The notes beneath the pieces are model-generated. The model worked only from the letters and a program-made list of their open reading frames with translations, was not told the DNA's origin and searched no databases. A stretch of 64,000 bases of DNA from Candidatus Woesearchaeota archaeon. GTDB lineage: Archaea; Nanobdellota; Nanobdellia; Pacearchaeales; GW2011-AR1. The position numbers and the translations under genes are program-made. How positions within the stretch are numbered: the first letter of the stretch is position 1; each line of letters starts with the position of its first letter. Below are positions 1 through 62,391 of the stretch, in pieces. The DNA lies in assembly GCA_964623495.1 (NCBI GenBank), contig CAZUTV010000001.1:44682-108681 (forward strand), written 5' to 3'.

Positions 1-2025
1 TTTCTCCTCAGCAAATTAGCATTGCTAACAACAGTTATTGAAGATGCAGCCATAGCAATTTCTGCAATTATTGGATGAAGAATTCCTCCAACAGCTAAAG
101 GAATAGCAACAACATTATAGGCAAAAGCCCAGAACAAGTTTTGTTTTATTTTTGAAAAAGTGGCTTTGCTTAATCTTATAGCAGCAACAACTCCCAACAA
201 AGAGCCTCTCGCTAATACTAAATCTCCTGCTTCTATTGCAATATCTGTTCCTGTTCCCATTGCAATTCCAACATTTGCCTGCTTTAATGCAGGAGCGTCA
301 TTAATTCCATCCCCAATAAATGCAACCATGCCTCTTTTTTGCAGTTCTATTACTTTATTTGCCTTGTCTTCTGGAAGAACATTTGCAATTACTTCTTTAA
401 TTCCAACTTCCTTAGCAATTGCTTTGGCAGTTCTTTCATTGTCTCCTGTAATCATAACTGTTTTATATCCTGCATAATTAAGCATTGAAATCGCTTTCAT
501 TGAGTCATCTTTAACAGCATCAGCAATCCCAATAATCCCAAGAACTTTTTTGTTTTCGGCAACAATTACAGCAGTATATCCAGAATCTTCAAATTCTTCA
601 ATATTCTTTTCAAGACCCTTTAAAAGTATGCCCTTTTCTTTCATTAATGTTGAGTTTCCAATAATAATATTCTTGCTTCCAATCTTTCCTTCAACACCCC
701 GTCCCCTTAAGATTTTGAATGATTTAACTTCTTTGTATCTCTTTAATCCTGCTTTTTGCACAATGGCCTTAGATAACGGATGCTCGCTTAGTTTTTCAAG
801 GCTTCCAGCAATTTCAAGCAAATAAGATTCTTTGACTTTAGAATAAATCTGCCTTACTTCTGGCTTTCCTTTTGTTATTGTTCCTGTTTTATCGAAAACA
901 ACATATTTTATCTCTTTCATTGTCTGGATTGCCTCTCCCTTTCTAATTAAAATTCCTTTTTTAGCTCCCATTCCGCTTCCCACAGTTAAAGCAATAGGAA
1001 CTGCAAGTCCTAAAGCACACGGACAAGCGATTACAAGAACAGAAATTGCAACCCCAATAGACCGCCCTATTTCTCCATTAAAGTACCACCAGCCGAAAAA
1101 TGTCAAAACAGCAACAACAAGTATTGATGGAACAAATATGCTTGTTATGTAATCTGCTGTTTTTTGTATTGGCACTTTTGTTCCTTGCGCTTCTTCAACC
1201 AATTCTATAATATGGGCAAGGAAAGTGTCTTTCCCTACTTTTGTGGTTTTAATATACAATATCCCATCTTGATTTAAGGTAGCTCCAATTACCGGACTTC
1301 CTTTTAATTTGTCAATAGGAAGACTTTCTCCGGTAACCATTGATTCATCAACAGCGCTCTCTCCCCTGACTACTATCCCATCTGTTGGAATCTTTTCCCC
1401 CGGCTTAACAATTAAAACATCTCCAACAACAACTTCTGAAATTGGGATTTCAACTTCTTCTTTGCCTCGCAAAACACGGGCATTTTTAGCTCCAAGTTCA
1501 AGCAGTTTTTTTATTTCTTGAGACGCTCTTCCTCTTGCCTTGGCTTCAATATATTTTCCTGTAATAAATATAGCCATAATCATTGCAGAAACCCCGGAAT
1601 AATCATTAATCTCCATAAAAAAGGTTAGTATTCCAGTTAGGTAAGCAATTATTGTTCCTAAAGAAATTAAAGAGTCCATATTAAAGTAAAATGTAAATAA
1701 CCCCCTAAATCCAGACTTTAAGGTTGAAAAGCCAAATATAAAAACAACAGGAAACCCAAGAATAAGTAAAATAGCAATTAGCCACTCTTCTGGCAAAAAC
1801 ATTAGATCAAAAACTCTCATAAGGACCATTATTATTGCAATAGGAATTGCAAAGATCCAACTGCCGACAAGTTTTCTTTTCCAGCCTCTGATTTCAGAAT
1901 CTTCTGCCGGCTTTGAATGATCATGATTATGGTTCATTCTAAGTTCTGGTTTGGGAATCTTTCTAAAAGGTTCAATTTCGTGATTTTTATTGTTCACTCT
2001 ATCATCTATTCTAAAGTGTTCCATT
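1..2025 (-). CDS. copA: Cu(I)-translocating P1B-type ATPase; 3' end runs past the window edge, which is why no ORF was reported
   Basis: Reverse-strand translation gives [16 protein letters not shown] (phosphorylation DKTGT), [18 protein letters not shown] and a His-rich N-terminus MNHNHDH. The plus-strand ORFs 160-2138 are its antisense. Confidence 0.85.
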
Positions 2026-2034
2026 TGATGTTTC

Positions 2035-2244
2035 TTAATCAATGCTTGTTACTCTGTATCCAACTTTTGCAACAGCTTTCTTTAATTCTTCATCACTTGC
2101 TTTTTCATCAGCTTCAACAAATGCCTTTTTTCCTATAACACTAACGCTGACTTCCTTGACTCCAGAAATCTTTTTCAAGCTTCTTTCAATGTTTGTTGCA
2201 CAGCTAGCACAATGCATTCCTTCTATGTTTATTTTTTTCTTCAT
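2035..2244 (-). CDS. copZ: HMA-domain copper chaperone (CopZ-like)
   Basis: [15 protein letters not shown] metal-binding MxCxxC motif; 69 aa ferredoxin-like HMA length; lies 10 nt upstream of copA. Confidence 0.8.
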
Positions 2245-2261: not shown

Positions 2262-2498
2262 TTATCTTTTGTTGACTTGTTTTACTAACCAAACTACCCC
2301 TAATATGATAAATATCAATATTCCGATATTTGTAATGTAGCTAATTAATTGTCCATAGCCATATCCCCCAGATCCATAGTTCCAGTTCCCCATCATGTTG
2401 CAAATTCCCCAGCCGGAATTTCCTGTCCATGGAATCATTGCTATTGCTAATAAAATTACAGCCCCTAAAACTATCCAAACTATTCTTTGGTCTTTCAT
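2262..2498 (-). CDS. small two-TM protein with Gly/Tyr/Met/Cys-rich extracytoplasmic loop (candidate Cu-binding)
   Basis: TM-loop-TM topology; loop GNSGWGICNMMGNWNYGSGGYGYG; paralogue of 2572-2808. Confidence 0.5.
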   Translation of the reverse strand: MKDQRIVWIVLGAVILLAIAMIPWTGNSGWGICNMMGNWNYGSGGYGYGQLISYITNIGILIFIILGVVWLVKQVNKR

Positions 2499-2571
2499 TT
2501 TAATTTTTTAATTAATCTCCTATTTGAAAACTTTATTGTGAATTGTTGGTTTGGGAACCTTTTCAAAAGGT

Positions 2572-2808
2572 TCATTTTTGGATCTGCTTTACTAGCCAGA
2601 CAATGAATAAAACCGCCAAAACCAAAATAATTATATTAAATATCCATCCAAAAATCCAACCAGCTCCGTATCCATAGTTGCCAGACATCATACCCCACAT
2701 TCCACCAAAGTTGCCATATCCCATCATCCCATATCCAAATCCGCCAAAAAGCAACAAGATTAGGACGACCAAGACAACTATTAGGATAGTGTTATTATCC
2801 TCTTTCAT
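2572..2808 (-). CDS. small two-TM protein with Gly/Tyr/Met-rich loop, paralogue of 2262-2498
   Basis: Loop GGFGYGMMGYGNFGGMWGMMSGNYGYGAGW; same architecture and C-terminal WLVKQ motif. Confidence 0.5.
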   Translation of the reverse strand: MKEDNNTILIVVLVVLILLLFGGFGYGMMGYGNFGGMWGMMSGNYGYGAGWIFGWIFNIIILVLAVLFIVWLVKQIQK

Positions 2809-2809
2809 C

Positions 2810-3178
2810 TTATTTGCTTCCTCCTTTCATGTTATGCAATATGTGTATGCAATACTGCGACATGTGCTTATCAATAAGCTTCATTATTGGCTTTATTGTT
2901 TCTTCATTTAAGGAATAATAAATAAATTTCCCATCTCTTTCTGTTTTCACAAACCCGCATTGCCTTAATCTAGCAAGATCATGGGAAATTGCAGTTTGAT
3001 CCATTTTAAGTTCTCTCATTATTTCGCTAACATTCTTTTTCTCATTTCTCAATAAATTTATAATCTTTAGCCTTGACTCAGAAACCAATGTTCCAAAGAA
3101 GACTTTGTAAGCCCCATAAACTTCATTTTCATGAAACCCTTCTTTATGAACGTGATGTAACATGTTTTTATTAATCAT
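2810..3178 (-). CDS. ArsR/SmtB-family metalloregulator
   Basis: wHTH LKIINLLRNEKKNVSEIMRELKMDQTAISHDLARLRQCGFV. Confidence 0.75.
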   Translation of the reverse strand: MINKNMLHHVHKEGFHENEVYGAYKVFFGTLVSESRLKIINLLRNEKKNVSEIMRELKMDQTAISHDLARLRQCGFVKTERDGKFIYYSLNEETIKPIMKLIDKHMSQYCIHILHNMKGGSK

Positions 3179-3223
3179 ATGATAATCCCATACATATGTA
3201 TTTATAAATGTTTCGGTGTTTGA

Positions 3224-3679
3224 CTAGCCATTTTTTTTGAAAATCCATAAGCCAATAGCTAAAATTATCGCAATAAAGACTTGAATTTCAATTCCCCCAA
3301 AAGGAAGGCTTGCAAACGAAAACCCTATTCCCAAAGCACTAAAAATCATGGGAAACAAGCCAGTAACGCACAAAGGGCACACCCCAACAATTAATCCTCC
3401 CAAAGTTCCAACCCCCGCTGTTGCAACTGCTTTTCTGCATTTTTGCCTTTCTTTATATTTAACAAAAGCCGTTACAGCATTAATGGAAACTAGAATCCCG
3501 ATGACTAGAGTTAAAATTATCGAAATTCCAAGTTTAAGCCAGTTGACTGTGTCCGCATAAATTATAAACGACTTAATAGTGTTGTAAAAACCGCTAAAAA
3601 TAACATTCAAAATTATATAAACAATAAAAATTAAAAAAATCCAATAAATATATGGTTTTTTGAAAATTTTCATAATCAC
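3224..3679 (-). CDS. 4-TM membrane protein with CPLC motif (putative metal/thiol handling)
   Basis: GVCPLCVTG inside a TM helix; hydrophobic profile. Confidence 0.45.
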   Translation of the reverse strand: MIMKIFKKPYIYWIFLIFIVYIILNVIFSGFYNTIKSFIIYADTVNWLKLGISIILTLVIGILVSINAVTAFVKYKERQKCRKAVATAGVGTLGGLIVGVCPLCVTGLFPMIFSALGIGFSFASLPFGGIEIQVFIAIILAIGLWIFKKNG

Positions 3680-4074
3680 TCAACGATCAGCTTTCCAGAA
3701 CCCATTCCCATGGAGCACATAAAGACATAAGTTCCTTTTTCTTCAGGCGTAAATTCTACATAATCTTTTGGTGTTGGCAGTTGTTTGCTGATTCCTAGGG
3801 CCCTTATATTAAAACTTCTATAACATCCGTAAACACTCTTATCTAGGTAAATTCTTACAGGCAAACCGGCCTTTACAGTTACGGTATTAGGGTAATAATT
3901 AAAATTCTGCATGCTTAAGACAATTTCCTGAACATTTCCATCCACTATTCCCCCGTTTCCAGAAGGTTTCAAATCTTCGTTTCCTTGCCCGCTAACAAAA
4001 ATAAAGTATCCTAATACTACCACCGCAATTACCACTATGAAAAGCGTTATCTTCTTCATCCTCCGCAGCCACAC
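3676..4074 (-). CDS. secreted cupredoxin-like domain protein
   Basis: Signal anchor, then beta-rich domain ending FMCSMGMGSGKLIV (Cys/Met ligand pattern of cupredoxin-like Cu proteins). Confidence 0.55.
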   Translation of the reverse strand: MWLRRMKKITLFIVVIAVVVLGYFIFVSGQGNEDLKPSGNGGIVDGNVQEIVLSMQNFNYYPNTVTVKAGLPVRIYLDKSVYGCYRSFNIRALGISKQLPTPKDYVEFTPEEKGTYVFMCSMGMGSGKLIVE

Positions 4075-4526
4075 CCTCCGCCATTCGCCATTCCGCAGCT
4101 TGATCCGGTTTGGGTTTTTTGTTCAACGTAAGCTGGTTTTGTGCCGTCATTCTCCAGAACAGTAAAAGACCCTTGGTACATGTTCATTGAGCATGCTATA
4201 TTGAAAGTTCCTGCTTTATTTGGAGTAAATTCTATTACATTATCTGAGCTAGATAAGCTCTTTCTTATATTAAATGCAGAGATAACAACCGATTTAGAAC
4301 AACCAGGCATTTTGCTTATATCTGCTTCTATTCTTACAGGAGTATCTTTCTTGATTGTTGAAGGACTTAAGATATAGTTTCCTCCTTCGACAGAGAGCTT
4401 GACAATCTGCACATTTTCATTTGCAATAACATTCCCTGTTGTTGCGCTTCCTGAATTTGTGAATACAAATACTGCAGCCACTAAAACAATCATTCCTATT
4501 CCAATAATTGCTGTTTTGTTTTTCAT
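4056..4526 (-). CDS. secreted cupredoxin-like protein with C-terminal Cys/Gly tail
   Basis: Paralogue of 3676-4074 (IACSMNMYQGSFTV); tail SSCGMANGGGCGCGG; overlaps the downstream gene by 19 nt. Confidence 0.55.
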   Translation of the reverse strand: MKNKTAIIGIGMIVLVAAVFVFTNSGSATTGNVIANENVQIVKLSVEGGNYILSPSTIKKDTPVRIEADISKMPGCSKSVVISAFNIRKSLSSSDNVIEFTPNKAGTFNIACSMNMYQGSFTVLENDGTKPAYVEQKTQTGSSCGMANGGGCGCGG

Positions 4527-4593: not shown

Positions 4594-5277
4594 TCATCCA
4601 AATAATGCACTCCTTGGTCCAAAAACCATAAGCCAGCTAGTAGCCAAGGTTAACACTAAACTGGTGACTATTGCTATAAAATGATCTTCCTTTACCTGCC
4701 TATCACTTTCTTTGGTTTCTGTAAATATCATGTAATTTAATGAGGCAAGAATCACAGTACATACCCCGAAGATGATAATGCTTGCAATTTTCAGATTGTC
4801 ATTTATTAACATTACTGCAGTCATTGCGCCCATCCAGCCACCCATAAAACCCGCCATTATACCTTCCATGAATCCCATTACTCCACAGCAAGATCCCATC
4901 CAGATTCCAAGGACAATCCCTACAGCCATTCCAAAAACTCCCCCAATAAACATCCCGTTAGTTGCTCCCATGAAATATCCTGCCAAAAACCCGGCTATCA
5001 TTCCAATAGTCATCCCAACCATCATGCCAGACATGCACGCCATTTGCTTATATGCCCTAATCTGTTTTATTGTTGGAATAACGAGCGCATAGCTTAAGAC
5101 CGCAAATAAAAGGTAAAATCCGTATTTAGGAATAAAATTCTCGACATATCTTAATTTAAAATAATAAAATAAGGCAAGGACTATCAGAGATGTAATAAGT
5201 GAGTAAAATATGGTTTTAATTAACTCTCCTTCTACCCTATTTCCATTCAATTCTTTAGTGAATTCTTTAAACGACAT
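4594..5277 (-). CDS. membrane protein with Met/Gly-zipper TM helices
   Basis: CMSGMMVGMTIGMIAGFLAGYFMGATNGMFIGGVFGMAVGIVLGIWMGSCCGVMGFMEGIMAGFMGGWMGAM. Confidence 0.5.
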   Translation of the reverse strand: MSFKEFTKELNGNRVEGELIKTIFYSLITSLIVLALFYYFKLRYVENFIPKYGFYLLFAVLSYALVIPTIKQIRAYKQMACMSGMMVGMTIGMIAGFLAGYFMGATNGMFIGGVFGMAVGIVLGIWMGSCCGVMGFMEGIMAGFMGGWMGAMTAVMLINDNLKIASIIIFGVCTVILASLNYMIFTETKESDRQVKEDHFIAIVTSLVLTLATSWLMVFGPRSALFG

Positions 5278-5359: not shown

Positions 5360-6061
5360 TTATTTTGCAAGCTCTGCGTCAATTGCCTGCTTGAATACTT
5401 CGTATGGTTGTGCACCGCTTATGAATGCCCCATTAACAAAAAACCCGGGAGTTCCCTGAACCCCATAGCTTTGCCCGTCAGTCATGTCTTTTCTTATTTC
5501 GCCTGCCATCTGTCCAGAGTCAAGACAGCTGTTGAACTTGCCTATATTGAGCCCTATCTGCTGAGCATAAGCCTTCAAGCTATTCACATCTAATGCTTTC
5601 TGGTTTGTAAAAAGCTTGTCATGCATTTCATAATATTTTCCCTGCTCTCCAGCACACTCCGCAGCTTCTGCTGCTTTTTGAGCATTAGGGTGGAAGCTTA
5701 ATGGAAAGTCTCTGAAAACAATTCTTACTTTTCCGGTATCAACATATTCCTTCTTTATTTGTGGATATGTCTGGCTGAAGTGCCTACCGCAATACGGACA
5801 TTCATAGTCACTGAATTCAACCATTGTTACTTCTGCATCTTTGTTGCCAAGAATGGCGTCGTCATCAATGCTTACCTGAACTTTTGAAGGCTCAGGACTA
5901 GGTACACTATCTCCTGCAACTGCATTGCCTGTCACGCTTCCTCCACTCATTCCAAATCCGCCAGTGAATAGGCTTATGACAAATAATGCTGCAAAAAGGA
6001 AGGTTCCTATCTGCCACATAGTGTGTTTTTTAACAGTTATTGATTCTTCTCTTTGTTCCAT
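5360..6061 (-). CDS. DsbA-like thiol:disulfide oxidoreductase, membrane-anchored
   Basis: Thioredoxin-fold CPYC active site (FSDYECPYCGRHF); N-terminal TM; likely start at internal MWQIG. Confidence 0.75.
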   Translation of the reverse strand: MEQREESITVKKHTMWQIGTFLFAALFVISLFTGGFGMSGGSVTGNAVAGDSVPSPEPSKVQVSIDDDAILGNKDAEVTMVEFSDYECPYCGRHFSQTYPQIKKEYVDTGKVRIVFRDFPLSFHPNAQKAAEAAECAGEQGKYYEMHDKLFTNQKALDVNSLKAYAQQIGLNIGKFNSCLDSGQMAGEIRKDMTDGQSYGVQGTPGFFVNGAFISGAQPYEVFKQAIDAELAK

Positions 6062-6125
6062 CTTTTTTACCTCCTTACATCTTTTTGAATAAAAAGTGTT
6101 CTTGGTTTACCAAGTCCGGACAAAC

Positions 6126-6599
6126 TTAGTCCTTTAGGACTACGATGTTATTCATCCCCCTTCGTTTTCTTTCAATCAACTGCTTGGACTCTAGCTTGTC
6201 AAGAAGTCTCGTCATCTTAACCTTGCCAATTTGAAGTTTTTCCATTACATCTGCCTGAAACATTGCATTTCCTTCTTTAGATAATAAATCAACAACAAGT
6301 TTCTCTTCTTTTTCTAAGCCAGAAATATCAAGCTTCTTCTTCTTTTCTGTAATATTCTTCACAACAATTTTTTCTTTTGGTTTTGAAAACATAATGAATA
6401 AGCCTATAATAACGATAACTCCTATAATTGTTACACTAATCCAAGTCTGAGTTCTTATTGTCCCATACATGCCACAACTCGGGCCGTGCGTGCAGGTTTG
6501 ACTAACTATATCTTTTAATCCAAAATTGAATAAAAGTACAACTGCTAGCATTATTACTGCAATTCCTAAGATTAACCAACCAACTTGTTTATTTTCCAT
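6126..6599 (-). CDS. membrane-tethered winged-helix regulator
   Basis: Two N-terminal TM segments flanking CTHGPSCGMYG, then C-terminal wHTH MTRLLDKLESKQLIERKRRGMNNIVVL. Confidence 0.55.
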   Translation of the reverse strand: MENKQVGWLILGIAVIMLAVVLLFNFGLKDIVSQTCTHGPSCGMYGTIRTQTWISVTIIGVIVIIGLFIMFSKPKEKIVVKNITEKKKKLDISGLEKEEKLVVDLLSKEGNAMFQADVMEKLQIGKVKMTRLLDKLESKQLIERKRRGMNNIVVLKD

Positions 6600-6891
6600 T
6601 TTTTTTGTTTAACCTCTTTAGCAATTCATTCATGTCTCTTTTACTCATTCCGTGAACCATACATCCTTCTTCAATTGTTTCAGCCATGGACATTGGACAT
6701 CCGATACAGTGAAACCCAATATCAAAAAGCAGGTCTGCGGCTTCTGGATTTAGGTACATTATCTCTGCAATCCTTGTGTCTTTAGTAATTTCTTTCTGTA
6801 CGGCAGTGCTTTGTTTAGACATTTTGGGTGAATCCTTAGTTGTCACAACAACATTTATGGCCCTTATTGCAGTTGCAGTCCTCTCCATCAC
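6589..6891 (-). CDS. DUF1858-type redox-disulfide domain protein (start probably at internal MSKQ, 6822)
   Basis: FHCIGCPMSMAETIEEGCMVHG motif. Confidence 0.6.
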   Translation of the reverse strand: MMERTATAIRAINVVVTTKDSPKMSKQSTAVQKEITKDTRIAEIMYLNPEAADLLFDIGFHCIGCPMSMAETIEEGCMVHGMSKRDMNELLKRLNKKNGK

Positions 6892-6940
6892 AGCAGTCTT
6901 TCTCTTTGTCTTTCTTTTGCTTTGGTTTTTTCTTCTCCAT
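6836..6940 (-). CDS. candidate 34-aa Lys-rich / Cys-rich metallothionein-like peptide
   Basis: MEKKKPKQKKDKEKDCCDGEDCNCNKGHKCCCDN; it is an internal-Met sub-ORF of the 71-aa track ORF 6836-7051 and sits between the DUF1858 gene and the ArsR gene. Confidence 0.25.
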   Translation of the reverse strand: MEKKKPKQKKDKEKDCCDGEDCNCNKGHKCCCDN

Positions 6941-7001
6941 CTTTCGTTTCCTTGTTTTTGTAAAATGAGTTATGCGGAATCTCTTGATTCCAAATTTTCC
7001 A

Positions 7002-7307
7002 TTAGTGACATTCGCAATTGCAATTAGGTTTGTTACAACAACATCTTGCATGTTTATCTGTCATCTCAAGCATTGGGATCACTGTTTTACTGAGAGAATA
7101 TATCCTTTCCTTGCCTTTCTGCTTAGAATTGACGATTCTGCATTTTTTTAGGGATGCAAGCGCATGAGAAAGCTTGCTTTGTTCAACTTTAAGCTCCTTT
7201 ACAAGCTCGCTAACATTTTTGTCCTTATTTCTCAAACTAAGAATTATCTCAATCTTTAACGGATTAGCAAGGTTCGTAAAAAATGTACAATAAAAGTGTT
7301 TCTGCAT
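7002..7307 (-). CDS. ArsR/SmtB-family regulator with C-terminal Cys cluster
   Basis: HTH NVSELVKELKVEQSKLSHALASLKKCRIV; tail CCCNKPNCNCECH. Confidence 0.7.
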   Translation of the reverse strand: MQKHFYCTFFTNLANPLKIEIILSLRNKDKNVSELVKELKVEQSKLSHALASLKKCRIVNSKQKGKERIYSLSKTVIPMLEMTDKHARCCCNKPNCNCECH

Positions 7308-7449
7308 ATATGAATCCTAGTTCATATGACTTTATAAATCTTGCGAAGATAAAGTTAAAAAATGAATAAGTAACAACTTTTAATTAAGTACGCCTTTATA
7401 GTTACAACAGTATACAAATATTTATAAATCAAAAAGAAAGAGTATTTTC

Positions 7450-7938
7450 ATGAGTTCAAGCACAGGGTTGATAATTGTTGTTACAATCGCTTTAATTGCC
7501 GTAGTTCTTATAGGCGGCTATTTATTGCTAGGCGATTTTTCAAGTTATGATGAAGATCAAGATTATGTTGCTCCTAGCAATTCTTTCGATCAAGAGCTTT
7601 CTAACCTAAGAGAAGCAAATTTTCAATTGAGCATGCAGCTTAGCAATGCCCAAAACGAAATTAAGAACTTAAAATCTCAGCAAAACCAATACTCTCAAGC
7701 ATCAACCGATGACAGAAAATGCAGCAACCTTGATGATGACTATGATGAAATTAAGGAAGACATAGATGATAAAGAAGAGGATATTGAAGACTTAGAGGAT
7801 GAAATAGACAGGAAAATACTCAATAACGAAACAGTGACTGACTTGCAAAACAGATTAGACAACTTATACGAAGATTTAGATGACCTTGAAAATGATCTTG
7901 ATGACATCAAGGACGATTTAGACAGATATAACTGCTGA
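7450..7938 (+). CDS. N-terminal TM anchor plus acidic coiled-coil protein
   Basis: TM helix, then highly acidic heptad-like region (DDDYDEIKEDIDDKEEDIEDLEDEID). Confidence 0.45.
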   Translation: MSSSTGLIIVVTIALIAVVLIGGYLLLGDFSSYDEDQDYVAPSNSFDQELSNLREANFQLSMQLSNAQNEIKNLKSQQNQYSQASTDDRKCSNLDDDYDEIKEDIDDKEEDIEDLEDEIDRKILNNETVTDLQNRLDNLYEDLDDLENDLDDIKDDLDRYNC

Positions 7939-7941
7939 ATT

Positions 7942-9084
7942 CTAAAAAGAAAATCTTCTTAACTTACTAATTATCTTTTCCAACTTCTCAAGAACAAAAT
8001 CCAATTCTTCTTTTGTAGTATACTTGCTTATACTGATCCTTACGCTTGATGCAATTTCCTTGTCGGTTCGTCCGATTGCCTTTAATACGTGACTTTTGGC
8101 GCCAGTATGCGAACTGCAAGCACTTCCAGTAGATGTATAAATTCCTTCATTCTCTAAATACCCTCCAAGCGCTTCTCCTTCAACTTCTTCAATACATAAA
8201 TTGATATTATTGGCTAGTCTATTTTTTCCAGAAGGGCCGTTTAACTCAACTCTTTCAATTTTCAAGACTTTACTTAAAAAATAATCTCTTAACTCTTCCA
8301 TTCTTTTAACGTCTTTAGAATTAGCAATTTCAACAGCCTTGGCAAACCCAACAATCCCAGAAACATTTTCAGTCCCTGATCTGAAGCCTCTTTCATGTCC
8401 ACCCCCATGGAAAAATGGATCAATTTTGATTCCTTCTCTTATATACAAAGCTCCAACACCCTTAGGACCGTGAATTTTGTGCCCGTTAAGAGTCATTAAG
8501 TCAATATTCATTTTTCTTACATCTATTGGGACCTTAGTAAAGCTCTGGCACGCATCTGTATGGAATAAAACCCCTTTTTTCTTGCAGATTTTTCCAATTT
8601 CTTCAAGATTTTGTATGGTTCCTATCTCATTGTTTCCGTGAATTATTGAAACAAGAAATGTTTTGTCAGTAATTGCCTTTTCAACATCTTTGGGATTAAC
8701 AAAACCCTCTGAATCAACATCTAAATAAGTAACTTTAGCAACATGCTTTTCAAGATATCTGCAAGTGTTCATAACACAATCATGATCGATTTTGGTTGTT
8801 ATTATATGGTTTTTTGAAGGATAATTCGCATAACAAAGTCCTGTAATTGCAAAATTGTTGCTTTCAGTTCCTCCTGATGTAAAAACAATCTCGTTAGCCT
8901 TTGCATTTATTGCTTTGGCAATAATTTTTCTAGAATTCTCTAAAGCCTGTTTAGCTTGTTGCCCAAAAATATGAACACTCGAAGCATTTCCATATTTTTC
9001 ATTAAAGTAAGGAGTCATTTCTCTAAGCACTTGATCATCTACTTTAGTTGTAGCTGCATTGTCTAGATATATTGTCTTGGGCAT
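7942..9084 (-). CDS. cysteine desulfurase (class V aminotransferase, NifS/IscS/SufS-like)
   Basis: PLP-lysine region LNGHKIHGPKGVGALY; SGGTESN; active-site Cys loop TGSACSS. Confidence 0.85.
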   Translation of the reverse strand: MPKTIYLDNAATTKVDDQVLREMTPYFNEKYGNASSVHIFGQQAKQALENSRKIIAKAINAKANEIVFTSGGTESNNFAITGLCYANYPSKNHIITTKIDHDCVMNTCRYLEKHVAKVTYLDVDSEGFVNPKDVEKAITDKTFLVSIIHGNNEIGTIQNLEEIGKICKKKGVLFHTDACQSFTKVPIDVRKMNIDLMTLNGHKIHGPKGVGALYIREGIKIDPFFHGGGHERGFRSGTENVSGIVGFAKAVEIANSKDVKRMEELRDYFLSKVLKIERVELNGPSGKNRLANNINLCIEEVEGEALGGYLENEGIYTSTGSACSSHTGAKSHVLKAIGRTDKEIASSVRISISKYTTKEELDFVLEKLEKIISKLRRFSF

Positions 9085-62264: not shown

Positions 62265-62391
62265 TGCGCGGACCGGGAATCGGACCCGGGTCACCTCGTC
62301 TTTGCATTTTTGCTTCTTTGAGCGCCGAACTTTCTTTCTAAAGAAAGTTGGGCATTGGCAACGAGATATTCTACCATTAAACCATCCGCGC
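62265..62391 (-). tRNA. tRNA-Gly (GCC) with about 54-nt intron in the anticodon loop
   Basis: Perfect acceptor GCGCGGA/TCCGCGC and T-arm CCGGG-TCCGATT-CCCGG; anticodon stem TCTCG...CGAGG interrupted after TTGCCA by an insert with an internal hairpin. Confidence 0.7.

What the first reader, a model, noticed from the sequence alone, without database searches (positions are those of the whole stretch)
2262..2808. Tandem paralogous 78-aa two-TM proteins with Gly/Tyr/Met/Trp-rich exposed loops
Two adjacent minus-strand genes share the same architecture. Each has an N-terminal basic stub, TM1, a 25-30 aa loop made almost entirely of G, Y, M, W, N and C (for example GMWGMMSGNYGYGAGW), TM2 and the C-terminal tail WLVKQ. 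They sit directly upstream of copZ and copA and next to an ArsR regulator. Met/Trp/Cys-rich loops recall the Cu(I) sites of CusF and the Met motifs of CopB/PcoB. They may be small extracytoplasmic copper-buffering proteins of a type I do not recognise.
Basis: partly seen in the sequence, partly recalled or inferred. Interest (0 to 1): 0.6.

Follow-up and report, generated by a model that had tools for sequence, protein, structure and literature searches.

The report
Met-rich small membrane proteins, copper operon
Two adjacent 78-residue genes belong to a real, conserved but unnamed family of tiny membrane proteins of DPANN archaea, whose outward-facing glycine/methionine/aromatic loop and fixed place between an ArsR regulator and the copZ-copA copper pump suggest a new copper(I)-handling accessory protein; nothing has been tested biochemically.

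Summary
The ORFs at 2572-2808 and 2262-2498 (minus strand) are paralogous 78-aa genes in the string arsR, small A, small B, copZ, copA. They belong to a family with no Pfam, NCBIfam or PDB match: 671 50%-identity representatives at E<=1e-3. Every named or located member is from Woese-, Pace- or Nanoarchaeota.

The genes are under purifying selection (median dN/dS 0.17; loop 0.15; TM2 0.08). The outer loop is uncharged and predicted disordered, with 30% Gly, 15.5% Met and 24% aromatic residues. A Met-Met pair occurs in 356 of 364 loops, against about 180 after shuffling. So this is not low-complexity drift.

In 63 species-level loci, CopA lies within 1.5 kb in 31 (30 on the same strand, mostly downstream), ArsR lies upstream in 41, and 55 have at least one of ArsR, CopZ or CopA within 8 kb. 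Variants add a signal peptide and His/Asp motifs, an extra Met/His-rich ectodomain, or a cytoplasmic Cys4 domain.

Best reading (about 0.5): a membrane-anchored extracytoplasmic Cu(I)/Ag(I)-binding loop that works with CopA. Rivals are a PacL-like pump partner and a broader thiophile-stress role, because some members sit beside DUF302, DsrE or SQR-like genes instead. I class it as a new variant of a known kind, of moderate interest.

The parts
2572..2808 (-). Small gene A, 78 aa. N-in/C-in two-helix hairpin with the outer loop GGFGYGMMGYGNFGGMWGMMSGNYGYGAG. A GGAGG Shine-Dalgarno-like site lies at 2820-2824, inside the 3' end of arsR.
   Evidence: ORF. Family profile E 2.4e-31. Best homologue 71% identical, E 1.4e-29. 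AF2 helices 2-21 and 50-77. This exact sequence is not in the protein collection, so the gene was probably not called, or was called with another start, in the source annotation.
2262..2498 (-). Small gene B, 78 aa. A divergent paralog (loop PWTGNSGWGICNMMGNWNYGSGGYGYG) with the same TM2 ending in VWLVKQ.
   Evidence: ORF. BLASTP against A gives E 2e-9. Family profile E 1.8e-15. Annotated by a source only as 'uncharacterized membrane protein'. Similar 'PW.G..W' variants are P0116, P0146 and P0167.
2810..3178 (-). ArsR/SmtB-family metalloregulator, the first gene of the string. It ends 1 nt before small gene A.
   Evidence: Pfam HTH_5 E 4.4e-15 and NCBIfam HTH_metalloreg E 7.4e-22. An ArsR homologue lies upstream on the same strand in 41 of 63 loci.
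3190..3208 (-). Probable arsR promoter and operator. A TATA-like TTTATAAATA (3199-3208) overlaps the perfect palindrome ATACATATGTAT (3190-3201), about 25 nt before the arsR ATG.
   Evidence: Sequence. A 21-nt block including both elements is identical in the related loci L087 and L088. The function is inferred.
2035..2244 (-). CopZ-type HMA metallochaperone (CxxC motif).
   Evidence: Pfam HMA E 1.2e-14 and NCBIfam CopZ models.
1..2024 (-). P1B-1 type Cu(I)/Ag(I)-exporting ATPase (CopA). It is cut by the window start and lacks only about 3 C-terminal residues. It has no N-terminal HMA domain and has a His-rich N-terminus. The motifs CPCx6P, YNx4P and MxxSS are present.
   Evidence: Translation. 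The full gene of 677 aa with E1-E2_ATPase and Hydrolase domains is seen in L086. The motif assignment follows the established P1B-1 signature and rests on my own knowledge.
2547..2573 (-). 27-nt motif GAACCTTTTGAAAAGGTTCCCAAACCA (a 9-1-9 palindrome) between small genes A and B. A second copy lies at 1947-1973.
   Evidence: Two matches, none expected by chance. It is not found in other loci. Its role is unknown.
1947..1973 (-). Second copy of the 27-nt motif. It lies within the annotated CopA N-terminus, 10 nt before the alternative start ATG at 1937.
3224..3679 (-). 151-aa membrane protein with a CPLC motif, part of the conserved island.
   Evidence: ORF. No family match. Homologue present in 13 of 64 loci.
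3676..4526 (-). Two membrane-anchored cupredoxin-like proteins (3676-4074 and 4056-4526).
   Evidence: Pfam Cupredoxin_1 E 1.1e-11 and 5.8e-9. Homologues in 27 and 24 of 64 loci.
4594..5277 (-). 227-aa Gly/Met-rich polytopic membrane protein of the island.
   Evidence: ORF. No family match. Homologue in 17 of 64 loci.
5360..6599 (-). DsbA-like thioredoxin (5360-6061) and a membrane-tethered winged-helix regulator DUF7343 (6126-6599), at the outer end of the island.
   Evidence: Pfam Thioredoxin_4 E 1.2e-38 and DUF7343 E 1.8e-8. Homologues in 14 and 20 of 64 loci.

Best explanation
The two ORFs are genuine paralogous genes of an unnamed small-membrane-protein family. So far the family has been seen only in DPANN archaea (Woese-, Pace- and Nanoarchaeota).

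Each protein inserts as an N-in/C-in helical hairpin. The uncharged, disordered outer loop of about 28 residues carries conserved G-M-M-G motifs set among Gly and aromatic residues.

The genes lie in one string with an ArsR-type metal sensor, the CopZ chaperone and a P1B-1 Cu(I) ATPase, and are probably transcribed from the arsR promoter.

The most likely mechanism is that, when copper rises, ArsR releases the promoter and CopZ and CopA pump Cu(I) out. The Met thioethers of the loops, possibly helped by Trp, Tyr or Phe as in CusF, then capture Cu(I) or Ag(I) at the outer face of the single membrane. The loops would buffer the metal or pass it on to the membrane-anchored cupredoxin-like proteins of the same island. 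The very conserved TM2 (ALVLFIVWL[VI]KQ) would hold the loops in an oligomer (A with B) or dock them to a partner such as CopA.

Shown here: gene reality, family, conservation, composition, genomic linkage, and pump type by its sequence motifs (the assignment of those motifs to P1B-1 pumps is my own knowledge). Inferred: topology, co-transcription, metal binding, and hand-over to partners.
For: Gene reality and conservation:
- 671 representatives at E<=1e-3, and the 150 best listed hits are full-length proteins of 68-128 aa.
- Median dN/dS is 0.17 over 228 pairs.
- Per region, dN/dS is 0.15 for the loop, 0.19 for TM1 and 0.08 for TM2.

Composition:
- The loop is about 30% Gly, 15.5% Met and 24% Phe+Tyr+Trp, with only 0.25 K+R per loop.
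- Met-Met occurs in 356 of 364 loops against a mean of 180 (maximum 200) in 500 shuffles. GMMG is the commonest tetrapeptide.

Topology:
- K+R per protein is 1.5, 0.25 and 3.8 for the N stub, loop and C tail.
- AF2 predicts two helices and a disordered loop.
- In 16 of the first 174 members, TM1 is replaced by a signal-peptide-like segment followed by 'SAH[TV]G[ED]D..HH.MMG'.
- A sister subfamily has a signal peptide and up to 7 YGMM repeats.
- P0133 carries a Cys4 domain N-terminal to TM1.

Linkage in 63 loci from different species:
- CopA lies within 1.5 kb in 31 loci (30 on the same strand) and downstream in 33 of the 38 with CopA within 8 kb.
- CopZ lies within 8 kb in 42 loci. ArsR lies upstream on the same strand in 41. 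At least one of the three is present in 55 of 63.
- All ten signal-peptide or His variants found in these loci have CopZ in the same locus, and all but one (L076, a 1.6-kb contig) also have CopA, 0-2 kb downstream on the same strand.
- In 16 loci the gene is adjacent to a secreted, membrane-anchored Met/His/Glu-rich protein with the same GMM-plus-TM tail.

Other:
- Independent contexts show the same cluster type.
- CopA has the CPCx6P, YNx4P and MxxSS motifs.
- The promoter and palindrome upstream of arsR are conserved in a relative.
Against: - There is no direct evidence of metal binding or of copper induction.
- The window proteins have no His and no conserved Cys, so any site would be Met-only, perhaps with aromatic residues, which is usually of modest affinity.
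- The most conserved part is TM2, not the loop. That fits a protein-protein role at least as well as a binding role.
- Loop positions align poorly, so the per-column conclusions are soft.
- Some members sit beside DUF302 (12 loci), DsrE-like (5) or SQR-like (4) genes.
- 8 of 63 loci have none of ArsR, CopZ or CopA within 8 kb, although several of these contigs are short.
- The sequences used for the composition and shuffle statistics are related to each other, so they are not independent.
Confidence: 0.5

Rival explanations
1. The proteins are membrane partners of the pump, acting as a scaffold, stabiliser or regulatory subunit of the P1B ATPase. Known examples of this kind are PacL with CtpC/G/V in mycobacteria, KdpF in KdpFABC, and the small regulins of SERCA. 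On this reading TM2 packs against CopA, and the Met-rich loop is secondary or merely lines the exit.
For: - TM2 is the most constrained segment (dN/dS 0.08), with W71 and K74 invariant in the first alignment.
- The gene lies upstream of CopA on the same strand in 33 of the 38 loci that have CopA.
- The neighbouring CopA is 650-677 aa with no recorded HMA domain in the window, L015-L018, L086 and L087. One exception is the 750-aa CopA with HMA in L001.
- There is a published precedent for small membrane proteins encoded upstream of P1B ATPases and required for their stability (PMC13460109).
Against: - There is no match to DUF1490 or DUF6110.
- PacL acts through a cytoplasmic EA-repeat region. 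These proteins have only 5-15 cytoplasmic residues.
- About 40% of the species loci have no P-type ATPase within 8 kb.
- The loop is itself under selection and carries a specific MM motif, which a pure transmembrane partner would not need.
Confidence: 0.2
2. The proteins are a general ArsR-controlled envelope protein for soft-metal, metalloid or reactive-sulfur/oxidant stress rather than a copper-specific factor. The Met-rich surface loop would serve as a sacrificial sink, for example through reversible Met oxidation or binding of several thiophilic species.
For: - ArsR, at 43 of 63 loci, is present as often as CopZ (42) and more often than CopA (38).
- Alternative contexts exist: ArsR, SAM methyltransferase, small gene, DUF302 (L034, L038, L054), and small gene with SQR-like or DsrE-like genes (L022, L044 and others).
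- A DsbA-like thioredoxin is part of the island.
Against: - CopZ and CopA remain among the commonest neighbours.
- L087 joins ArsR, the small gene, DUF302, CopZ and CopA in one string, so the DUF302 context is not separate from copper.
- The His/Asp-rich and Met/His-rich variants look like metal ligand sets rather than redox sinks.
Confidence: 0.15
3. The hairpins oligomerise into a Met-lined pore or conduit, like Ctr1 or a glycine-zipper channel, that moves Cu(I) or another solute across or along the membrane.
For: - The sequences have Gly-rich small-xxx-small patterns (FGGFG, GMWIFGW).
- Met residues sit at the outer end of TM2.
- TM2 is highly conserved.
- Tandem paralogs are frequent: 19 loci have 2 or more profile hits, a few of them weak hits to unrelated membrane proteins.
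Against: - There is no Ctr or glycine-zipper Pfam hit at E<=1.
- TM2 has no MxxxM motif.
- The genes travel with an exporter and its chaperone, so an importer is unlikely there.
- Single-TM variants with a signal peptide keep the function-bearing parts, which fits a pore less well.
Confidence: 0.07
4. The ORFs are chance or decaying low-complexity sequences with no function, or a holin- or bacteriocin-like element that happens to lie here.
For: The ORFs are short, the loop is low-complexity, no curated family matches, and small gene A is absent from the protein collection.
Against: - There are hundreds of full-length homologues.
- dN/dS is 0.03-0.15 for the closest pairs.
- The operon position is conserved across 63 species.
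- None of the neighbourhoods examined shows an evident phage-lysis or bacteriocin-export gene; no systematic screen was run.
Confidence: 0.02

Closest known systems
CusF (periplasmic Cu(I)/Ag(I) chaperone of CusCFBA)
   Same: It is an extracytoplasmic protein that takes Cu(I), using Met thioethers and an aromatic (Trp) cation-pi contact. It has been reported to receive Cu(I) from CopA (my own knowledge). The proposed role here is the same: an acceptor on the outer face.
   Different: CusF is a soluble OB-fold beta-barrel with a defined Met2His(Trp) site. The proteins here are a membrane hairpin with a disordered loop, and the window copies have no His. There is no sequence match, and the predicted structure is helical.
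PcoE / SilE and the Met motifs of CopB/PcoB, CueO and Ctr1 N-termini
   Same: These are intrinsically disordered, Met-rich extracytoplasmic segments that bind several Cu(I) or Ag(I) ions and act as a buffer or funnel. The variable number of MM motifs here (2-9 Met per loop) resembles such sponge-like regions.
   Different: Those segments use MxxM, MxM or HxxM spacings and many His, Asp or Glu residues. This family uses G-M-M-G in a Gly/aromatic, uncharged matrix tethered by two helices. No homology was found.
PacL proteins (DUF1490; PacL-like DUF6110) of mycobacterial effluxosomes
   Same: They are small membrane proteins encoded directly upstream of P1B ATPases, are needed for pump stability and clustering, and may carry metal-binding motifs (PMC13460109).
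   Different: PacL has one TM helix and a cytoplasmic EA-repeat/IDR region with a C-terminal His motif. Here the functional region faces outward and the cytoplasmic tail has only 5-15 basic residues. There is no HMM match.
SHOCT-family (PF09851, formerly DUF2078) membrane proteins next to DUF302 in archaeal copper islands
   Same: A SHOCT-family gene and a DUF302 gene flank the copper island of the DPANN archaeon Mia14 and of Cuniculiplasma (PMC5498576). Here the small gene is adjacent to DUF302 in 12 loci, so the position is equivalent. From memory, many such SHOCT proteins have a Gly/Met-rich segment before their TM helix. That is a lead, not a result.
   Different: No SHOCT domain is present. 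The C-tail is too short, and there is no Pfam hit at E<=1. Homology of the membrane parts could not be tested, because no SHOCT membrane protein sequence could be retrieved.
CopI / cupredoxin-like copper-tolerance proteins
   Same: They belong to the same kind of island. Two membrane-anchored Cupredoxin_1 proteins lie 0.9-2 kb upstream and co-occur in 27 of 64 loci. They are candidate partners.
   Different: They have a different fold and family. They are neighbours of the small proteins, not relatives.

Membership tests
Unnamed DPANN small Gly/Met-rich membrane protein family (defined here by alignments A1/A2) | Significant full-length match to the family profile. | tested here: met
   hmmsearch with A2 gives E 2.4e-31 for 2572-2808 and E 1.8e-15 for 2262-2498. 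Both sequences are rows of A2, so these scores are partly circular. Independent support: the single-sequence search with A gave a best hit of E 1.4e-29 at 71% identity, and B matches A at E 2e-9.
Unnamed DPANN small Gly/Met-rich membrane protein family | A TM2 ending in W-L-[VI]-K-Q followed by a basic tail, and at least one Met-Met in the preceding Gly/aromatic loop. | tested here: met
   Both window proteins have VWLVKQ and MM. MM occurs in 356 of 364 family loops.
CusF (Pfam CusF_Ec) | HMM match and an OB-fold beta-barrel with a Met/Met/His site. | tested here: not met
   No such hit at E<=1. The AF2 model has two helices and a coil. The window proteins have no His.
PacL (DUF1490 / DUF6110) | HMM match; a single TM helix followed by a cytoplasmic EA-repeat region. 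| tested here: not met
   No hit at E<=1. The proteins have two TM helices and a cytoplasmic tail of 6 residues. The definition is taken from PMC13460109.
PacL (DUF1490 / DUF6110) | Encoded in an operon directly upstream of a P1B ATPase. | tested here: met
   In the window the order is small A, small B, copZ, copA. CopA is downstream on the same strand in 33 of 38 loci.
SHOCT (PF09851) | A C-terminal SHOCT domain of about 30 aa. | tested here: not met
   No hit at E<=1. None of the proteins listed in the three word-index searches carries PF09851.
SHOCT (PF09851) | Homology of the N-terminal Gly/Met-rich membrane part. | not testable with these tools
   No SHOCT membrane protein could be retrieved. 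Only the 150 best of the 671 profile hits are visible.
Ctr copper transporter (Pfam Ctr) | Three TM helices, MxxxM in TM2, and an HMM match. | tested here: not met
   No hit. The proteins have two helices and no MxxxM in TM2.
P1B-1 Cu(I) ATPase operon (context, not the small proteins) | CPCx6P, YNx4P and MxxSS transmembrane motifs in the ATPase, and a CxxC HMA chaperone. | tested here: met
   [17 protein letters not shown] and MAASS are in the translation. HMA scores E 1.2e-14.
Copper-binding protein (function) | Measured Cu(I) or Ag(I) binding, or copper-dependent expression. | not testable with these tools
   This needs biochemistry or transcriptomics of an uncultured DPANN archaeon or a heterologous host.

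The most novel reading that the evidence does not exclude
The family is a previously unrecognised class of outer-face subunit for the CopA pumps of DPANN archaea. In most loci examined these pumps are 650-677 aa with no recorded HMA domain. A TM2-mediated oligomer would present a ring of Met/aromatic loops, forming the Cu(I) exit or acceptor site. Such loops might concentrate Cu(I) at the cell surface. That could in turn relate to the Cu2O nanocrystal coats reported on ultra-small cells in a Pacearchaeota-dominated chimney (PMC9209642). That paper does not mention these genes, so the link is speculation.
Probability: 0.12. Interest if true: 0.75.

Novelty: new variant of a known kind. Interest (0 to 1): 0.52.

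Why it matters
How Cu(I) leaves a P1B pump and who receives it is well worked out only for Gram-negative bacteria, where the acceptors are CusF and periplasmic chaperones. For archaea with a single membrane it is open. DPANN archaea have tiny genomes, so an accessory gene they keep, and often duplicate, beside their copper pump is likely to matter.

If the loop binds Cu(I), this would be a minimal, membrane-tethered, disordered Met/aromatic copper site with no relative among known copper proteins. At 78 aa, with a loop of about 28 residues that can be synthesised, it would be easy to study.

The work also gives a name-worthy family and three related architectures for annotation. Several hundred database clusters are currently labelled only 'hypothetical' or 'uncharacterized membrane protein'.

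Tried and rejected
- Curated families. Pfam and NCBIfam scans of both proteins and of diverse members gave only sub-threshold noise.
- Solved structures. A profile search against PDB sequences found nothing below E 0.037.
- Relatives outside DPANN or with known domains. Two further word-index searches, one with an 80-sequence profile and one with a divergent sister subfamily, returned only short unnamed DPANN proteins. The single PF20077 flag on P0340 is a sub-threshold transmembrane match.
- SHOCT link. tblastn of the protein against plasmids gave no match, probably because of the low-complexity filter. Searching for DUF302 neighbours on plasmids gave Firmicutes and Salinibacter loci without any SHOCT or Gly/Met-rich neighbour. 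This was a dead end, so the SHOCT resemblance stays a recalled lead.
- The 27-nt palindromic motif as a conserved operator. It is absent from all other loci, so it is specific to this genome.
- His-brace or ATCUN reading of the 'SA|HTGEDD..HH' variants. This is kept only as a possibility, because in the fusion protein P0133 the same segment follows an internal TM helix that is unlikely to be cleaved.
- Holin, double-glycine bacteriocin and class III signal-peptide readings. These were rejected on context and on the hydrophobic N-terminus.
- Fold search of the AF2 model. It was not run, because a 78-residue helical hairpin with mean pLDDT 66 would give meaningless matches.
Full report
**Observation**

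The window holds two minus-strand ORFs of 78 codons at 2572-2808 (A) and 2262-2498 (B). Their sequences are:
- A: MKEDNNTILIVVLVVLILLLFGGFGYGMMGYGNFGGMWGMMSGNYGYGAGWIFGWIFNIIILVLAVLFIVWLVKQIQK
- B: MKDQRIVWIVLGAVILLAIAMIPWTGNSGWGICNMMGNWNYGSGGYGYGQLISYITNIGILIFIILGVVWLVKQVNKR

They are paralogs, with 48% identity over the last 46 residues and E 2e-9. AlphaFold2, run with a 32-sequence alignment, predicts two helices (2-21 and 50-77) joined by a low-confidence coil; mean pLDDT is 66, and residues 26-46 fall below 50.

- A's N-terminal stub is not basic.
- Phe is a major loop residue.
- Cys is not a family feature.
- WLVKQ is the inner end of TM2 rather than a free tail.

**Context in the window**

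All the genes run on the minus strand, in this order:
- arsR at 2810-3178 (HTH_5 E 4e-15; NCBIfam metalloregulator E 7e-22).
- A 1-nt gap, then A, with GGAGG 11 nt before its ATG and inside the arsR 3' end.
- A 73-nt gap, then B.
- A 17-nt gap, then copZ at 2035-2244 (HMA E 1e-14).
- A 10-nt gap, then copA, from 2024 to the window edge.

CopA carries CPCx6P, YNx4P and MxxSS, the signature of Cu(I)/Ag(I) P1B-1 pumps (sequence; motif assignment from my own knowledge). It has no HMA domain. The complete gene is 677 aa.

Upstream of arsR, the same strand carries the following genes:
- a 151-aa CPLC membrane protein;
- two membrane-anchored Cupredoxin_1 proteins;
- a 227-aa Gly/Met-rich polytopic membrane protein;
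- a DsbA-like thioredoxin;
- a membrane-tethered winged-helix protein (DUF7343).

About 25 nt before the arsR ATG lies a TATA-like TTTATAAATA overlapping the perfect palindrome ATACATATGTAT. A 21-nt block containing both is identical in a related contig whose ArsR falls in the same 90%-identity cluster. I read this as the operon promoter with an ArsR operator, which is an inference.

**The family**

Neither Pfam nor NCBIfam has a model for these proteins, and no PDB sequence matches.
- A word-index search with A found 30 small proteins of 70-96 aa, all without Pfam domains.
- An exhaustive profile search of 1.84 billion 50%-identity representatives found 671 at E<=1e-3 and 213 at E<=1e-10. The best 150 are all 68-128 aa and match end to end.
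- Two more searches returned only unnamed proteins. One used an 80-sequence profile and the other a divergent subfamily. Where a name exists, it is 'hypothetical' or 'uncharacterized membrane protein' from Pace-, Woese- or Nanoarchaeota.
- A scan of one genome per GTDB species found 64 loci, every one from a DPANN MAG of these groups. The scan used the pattern IxWL[VI]KQ[LI]Q, so it cannot exclude more distant relatives elsewhere.

**Is the loop drift?**

No. Among 228 gene pairs from different loci, median dN/dS is 0.17, and the closest pairs give 0.03-0.15. Split by region over 190 pairs, dN/dS is 0.15 for the loop, 0.19 for TM1, 0.08 for TM2 and 0.30 for the C tail.

Across 362 members the loop has 29.8% Gly, 15.5% Met, 24% Phe+Tyr+Trp, 1% Cys and 0.8% His. 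A Met-Met dipeptide occurs in 356 of 364 loops, against a mean of 180 and a maximum of 200 in 500 within-loop shuffles. GMMG is the most frequent tetrapeptide, and there are 2-9 Met per loop.

The sequences are related to each other, so these are not independent trials. Even so, both the motif and the constraint are clear.

**Topology**

K+R per protein is 1.5 in the N stub, 0.25 in the loop of about 32 residues, and 3.8 in the C tail. By the positive-inside rule, this puts both ends inside and the loop outside. Natural variants agree:
- In 16 of the first 174 members, TM1 and the FGGFG motif are replaced by a signal-peptide-like N-terminus followed by 'SAH[TV]G[ED]D..HH.MMG'.
- A sister subfamily has a signal peptide, up to seven YGMM repeats and a single TM helix.
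- Longer relatives of 159-180 aa have a signal peptide and an 80-residue Met/His/Glu-rich domain (GDYYMEQMHPGEAHEYMD.MMGGEGSE), followed by GMM repeats, a TM helix and a basic tail.
- P0133 has a Cys4 treble-clef-like domain before TM1.

So the constant core is a Met/Gly/aromatic ectodomain, then TM2, then a basic tail. TM1 can be exchanged for a signal peptide.

**Genomic linkage**

I searched the 64 species loci with the window's neighbours by tblastn. In the 63 loci that have a strong family ORF:

| Neighbour | Within 1.5 kb | Within 8 kb | Orientation |
|---|---|---|---|
| CopA-like ATPase | 31 (30 same strand) | 38 | downstream in 33 of 38 |
| CopZ | 31 | 42 | all 42 on the same strand |
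| ArsR | 36 | 43 | upstream and same strand in 41 |

At least one of the three lies within 8 kb in 55 of 63 loci. For genomes of about 1 Mb with one or two such pumps, chance proximity would be a few percent at most.

All ten signal-peptide or His variants in these loci have CopZ in the same locus. All but one (L076, a 1.6-kb contig) also have CopA, 0-2 kb downstream on the same strand. Contigs found by exact-protein look-up show the same island.

Other recurrent neighbours are the Met/His-rich long relative (adjacent in 16 loci), DUF302 (12), DsrE-like (5) and SQR-like (4) genes. L087 strings ArsR, a Cys4 gene, the small gene, a 55-aa Cys-rich gene, DUF302, CopZ and CopA together. Tandem or multiple copies are common: 19 loci have 2 or more profile hits, a few of them weak hits to unrelated membrane proteins.

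**Mechanism**

The best-supported reading has four steps:
1. An ArsR-controlled operon is switched on by metal.
2. CopZ and CopA export Cu(I).
3. The small hairpins display uncharged Met/aromatic loops on the outer membrane face. These bind Cu(I) or Ag(I) through thioethers, as the Met-rich regions of CusF, PcoE/SilE, CopB/PcoB and Ctr1 do (my own knowledge).
4. The loops buffer the metal or relay it to the membrane-anchored cupredoxin-like proteins of the island.

The strongly conserved TM2 suggests specific helix packing, either A with B or docking to a partner. No metal binding has been shown; I give this reading about 0.5.

The main rival (0.2) is a PacL-like scaffold or subunit of the pump (PMC13460109). 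TM2 conservation and the gene order favour it. Against it are the near absence of a cytoplasmic part, the selected loop motif, and the roughly 40% of loci without a pump nearby.

A broader thiophile or oxidant-stress role (0.15) would account for the DUF302, DsrE and SQR contexts. A pore (0.07) or a non-functional ORF (0.02) is unlikely.

**Comparison with known systems**

The family works like a membrane-tethered CusF or PcoE, but it is not a member of any known family. HMM and fold tests for CusF, PacL (DUF1490/DUF6110), SHOCT and Ctr were not met.

A published note places SHOCT-family and DUF302 genes beside the copper island of the DPANN archaeon Mia14 and of Cuniculiplasma (PMC5498576). 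Here the small gene takes the position next to DUF302. Whether its membrane part is homologous to that of SHOCT membrane proteins could not be tested.

**Verdict**

This is a real, conserved and unannotated family. Its copper link is strong by position and plausible by chemistry, but unproven. I class it as a new variant of a known kind, namely an extracytoplasmic Met-rich copper accessory protein, and rate its interest at about 0.5.

The most novel reading not excluded is an outer-face subunit of CopA pumps that mostly lack a recorded HMA domain, which would concentrate Cu(I) at the DPANN cell surface. This might relate to the Cu2O-coated ultra-small cells reported from a Pacearchaeota-dominated chimney (PMC9209642). 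I put its probability at about 0.12.

Noticed in passing
window 2547-2573 and 1947-1973 (minus strand): A 27-nt motif, GAACCTTTT[G/A]RAAAGRTTCCCAAACCA, occurs twice, with none expected by chance. The first copy is a perfect 9-1-9 palindrome that starts in the stop codon of small gene A. The second lies inside the annotated CopA N-terminus, 10 nt before the alternative start at 1937 (MNHNHDH...). It is absent from all other loci, and its role is unknown (an internal operator, an RNA hairpin, or a sign that CopA starts at 1937).
   Followed up: partly
window 3190-3208 (minus strand): A TATA-like TTTATAAATA and the palindrome ATACATATGTAT lie about 25 nt before the arsR ATG. A 21-nt block is identical in L087 and L088. 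This is probably a promoter for a leaderless arsR transcript, with an ArsR operator.
   Followed up: partly
window 4594-5277 (minus strand): A 227-aa polytopic membrane protein that is extremely rich in Gly and Met within its helices (GMMVGMTIGMIAGF..., CCGVMGFMEGIMAGFMGGWMGAM). It matches no Pfam or NCBIfam family and is conserved in 17 of 64 related loci. It could be a metal permease or channel of the island.
   Followed up: partly
window 6126-6599 (minus strand): A DUF7343 winged-helix DNA-binding domain is tethered to two N-terminal TM helices, whose outer loop is CTHGPSCGMYG. It may be a membrane-bound one-component sensor of extracytoplasmic metal. Homologues occur in 20 of 64 loci.
   Followed up: partly
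L040 1807-2286, L041 1537-2025, L042 3664-4164, L062 2102-2602, L069 7378-7881, L077 7314-7856, L036 2904-3407, L052 3029-3532: These are unnamed proteins of 159-180 aa. Each has a signal peptide, a domain of about 80 aa rich in Met, His and Glu (LTxEQLExxGDYYMEQMHPGEAHEYMDxMMGGEGSExLKQxHxNxAxRIYC), GMM repeats, a TM helix and a basic tail. They are present in 20 of 64 loci and adjacent to the small gene in 16, often overlapping it by 4 bp. No Pfam, NCBIfam or PDB match was found.
   Followed up: partly
P0371, P0373, P0376, P0380, P0288, P0296; L051 10404-10649, L062 8498-8743, L048 7072-7371: A sister subfamily has a signal peptide, one to seven YGMM repeats and a different conserved TM helix (WITYILxIxLIIAGIYWLIKxANKK). 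It is also found in loci that carry CopZ and/or CopA.
   Followed up: partly
P0133; L087 1106-1288 and 1513-1680: P0133 is a fusion of a Cys4 treble-clef-like domain (DUF2116, just under threshold) to the N-terminus of a family member. In L087 the same Cys4 module is a separate 60-aa gene just upstream of the small gene, and a 55-aa Cys-rich gene follows it.
   Followed up: partly
L034, L038, L054 (about 7000-8600); L022 2054-2655; L044 820-2903: Alternative conserved contexts lack CopA. One is ArsR, SAM methyltransferase, small gene, DUF302. Another is the small gene followed by SQR-like flavoprotein, DoxX-like and DsrE-like genes. These suggest a link to sulfur or thiophile stress in some lineages.
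   Followed up: partly
window 2572-2808: The exact protein of small gene A is absent from the 15-billion-sequence collection, although B, ArsR and the 227-aa protein from the same 268-kb contig are present. A was probably missed, or started differently, by the source's gene caller.
   Followed up: partly
window 6589-7307 (minus strand): A DUF1858 protein lies at 6589-6891 and a second ArsR-family regulator with a Cys-rich C-terminus (CCCNKPNCNCECH) at 7002-7307. An overlapping ORF at 6836-7051 has a Cys-rich tail and is of doubtful reality.
   Followed up: partly
window 62265-62391 (minus strand): A tRNA match spans 127 nt. ARAGORN did not call it, which suggests an intron-containing archaeal tRNA.
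   Followed up: no
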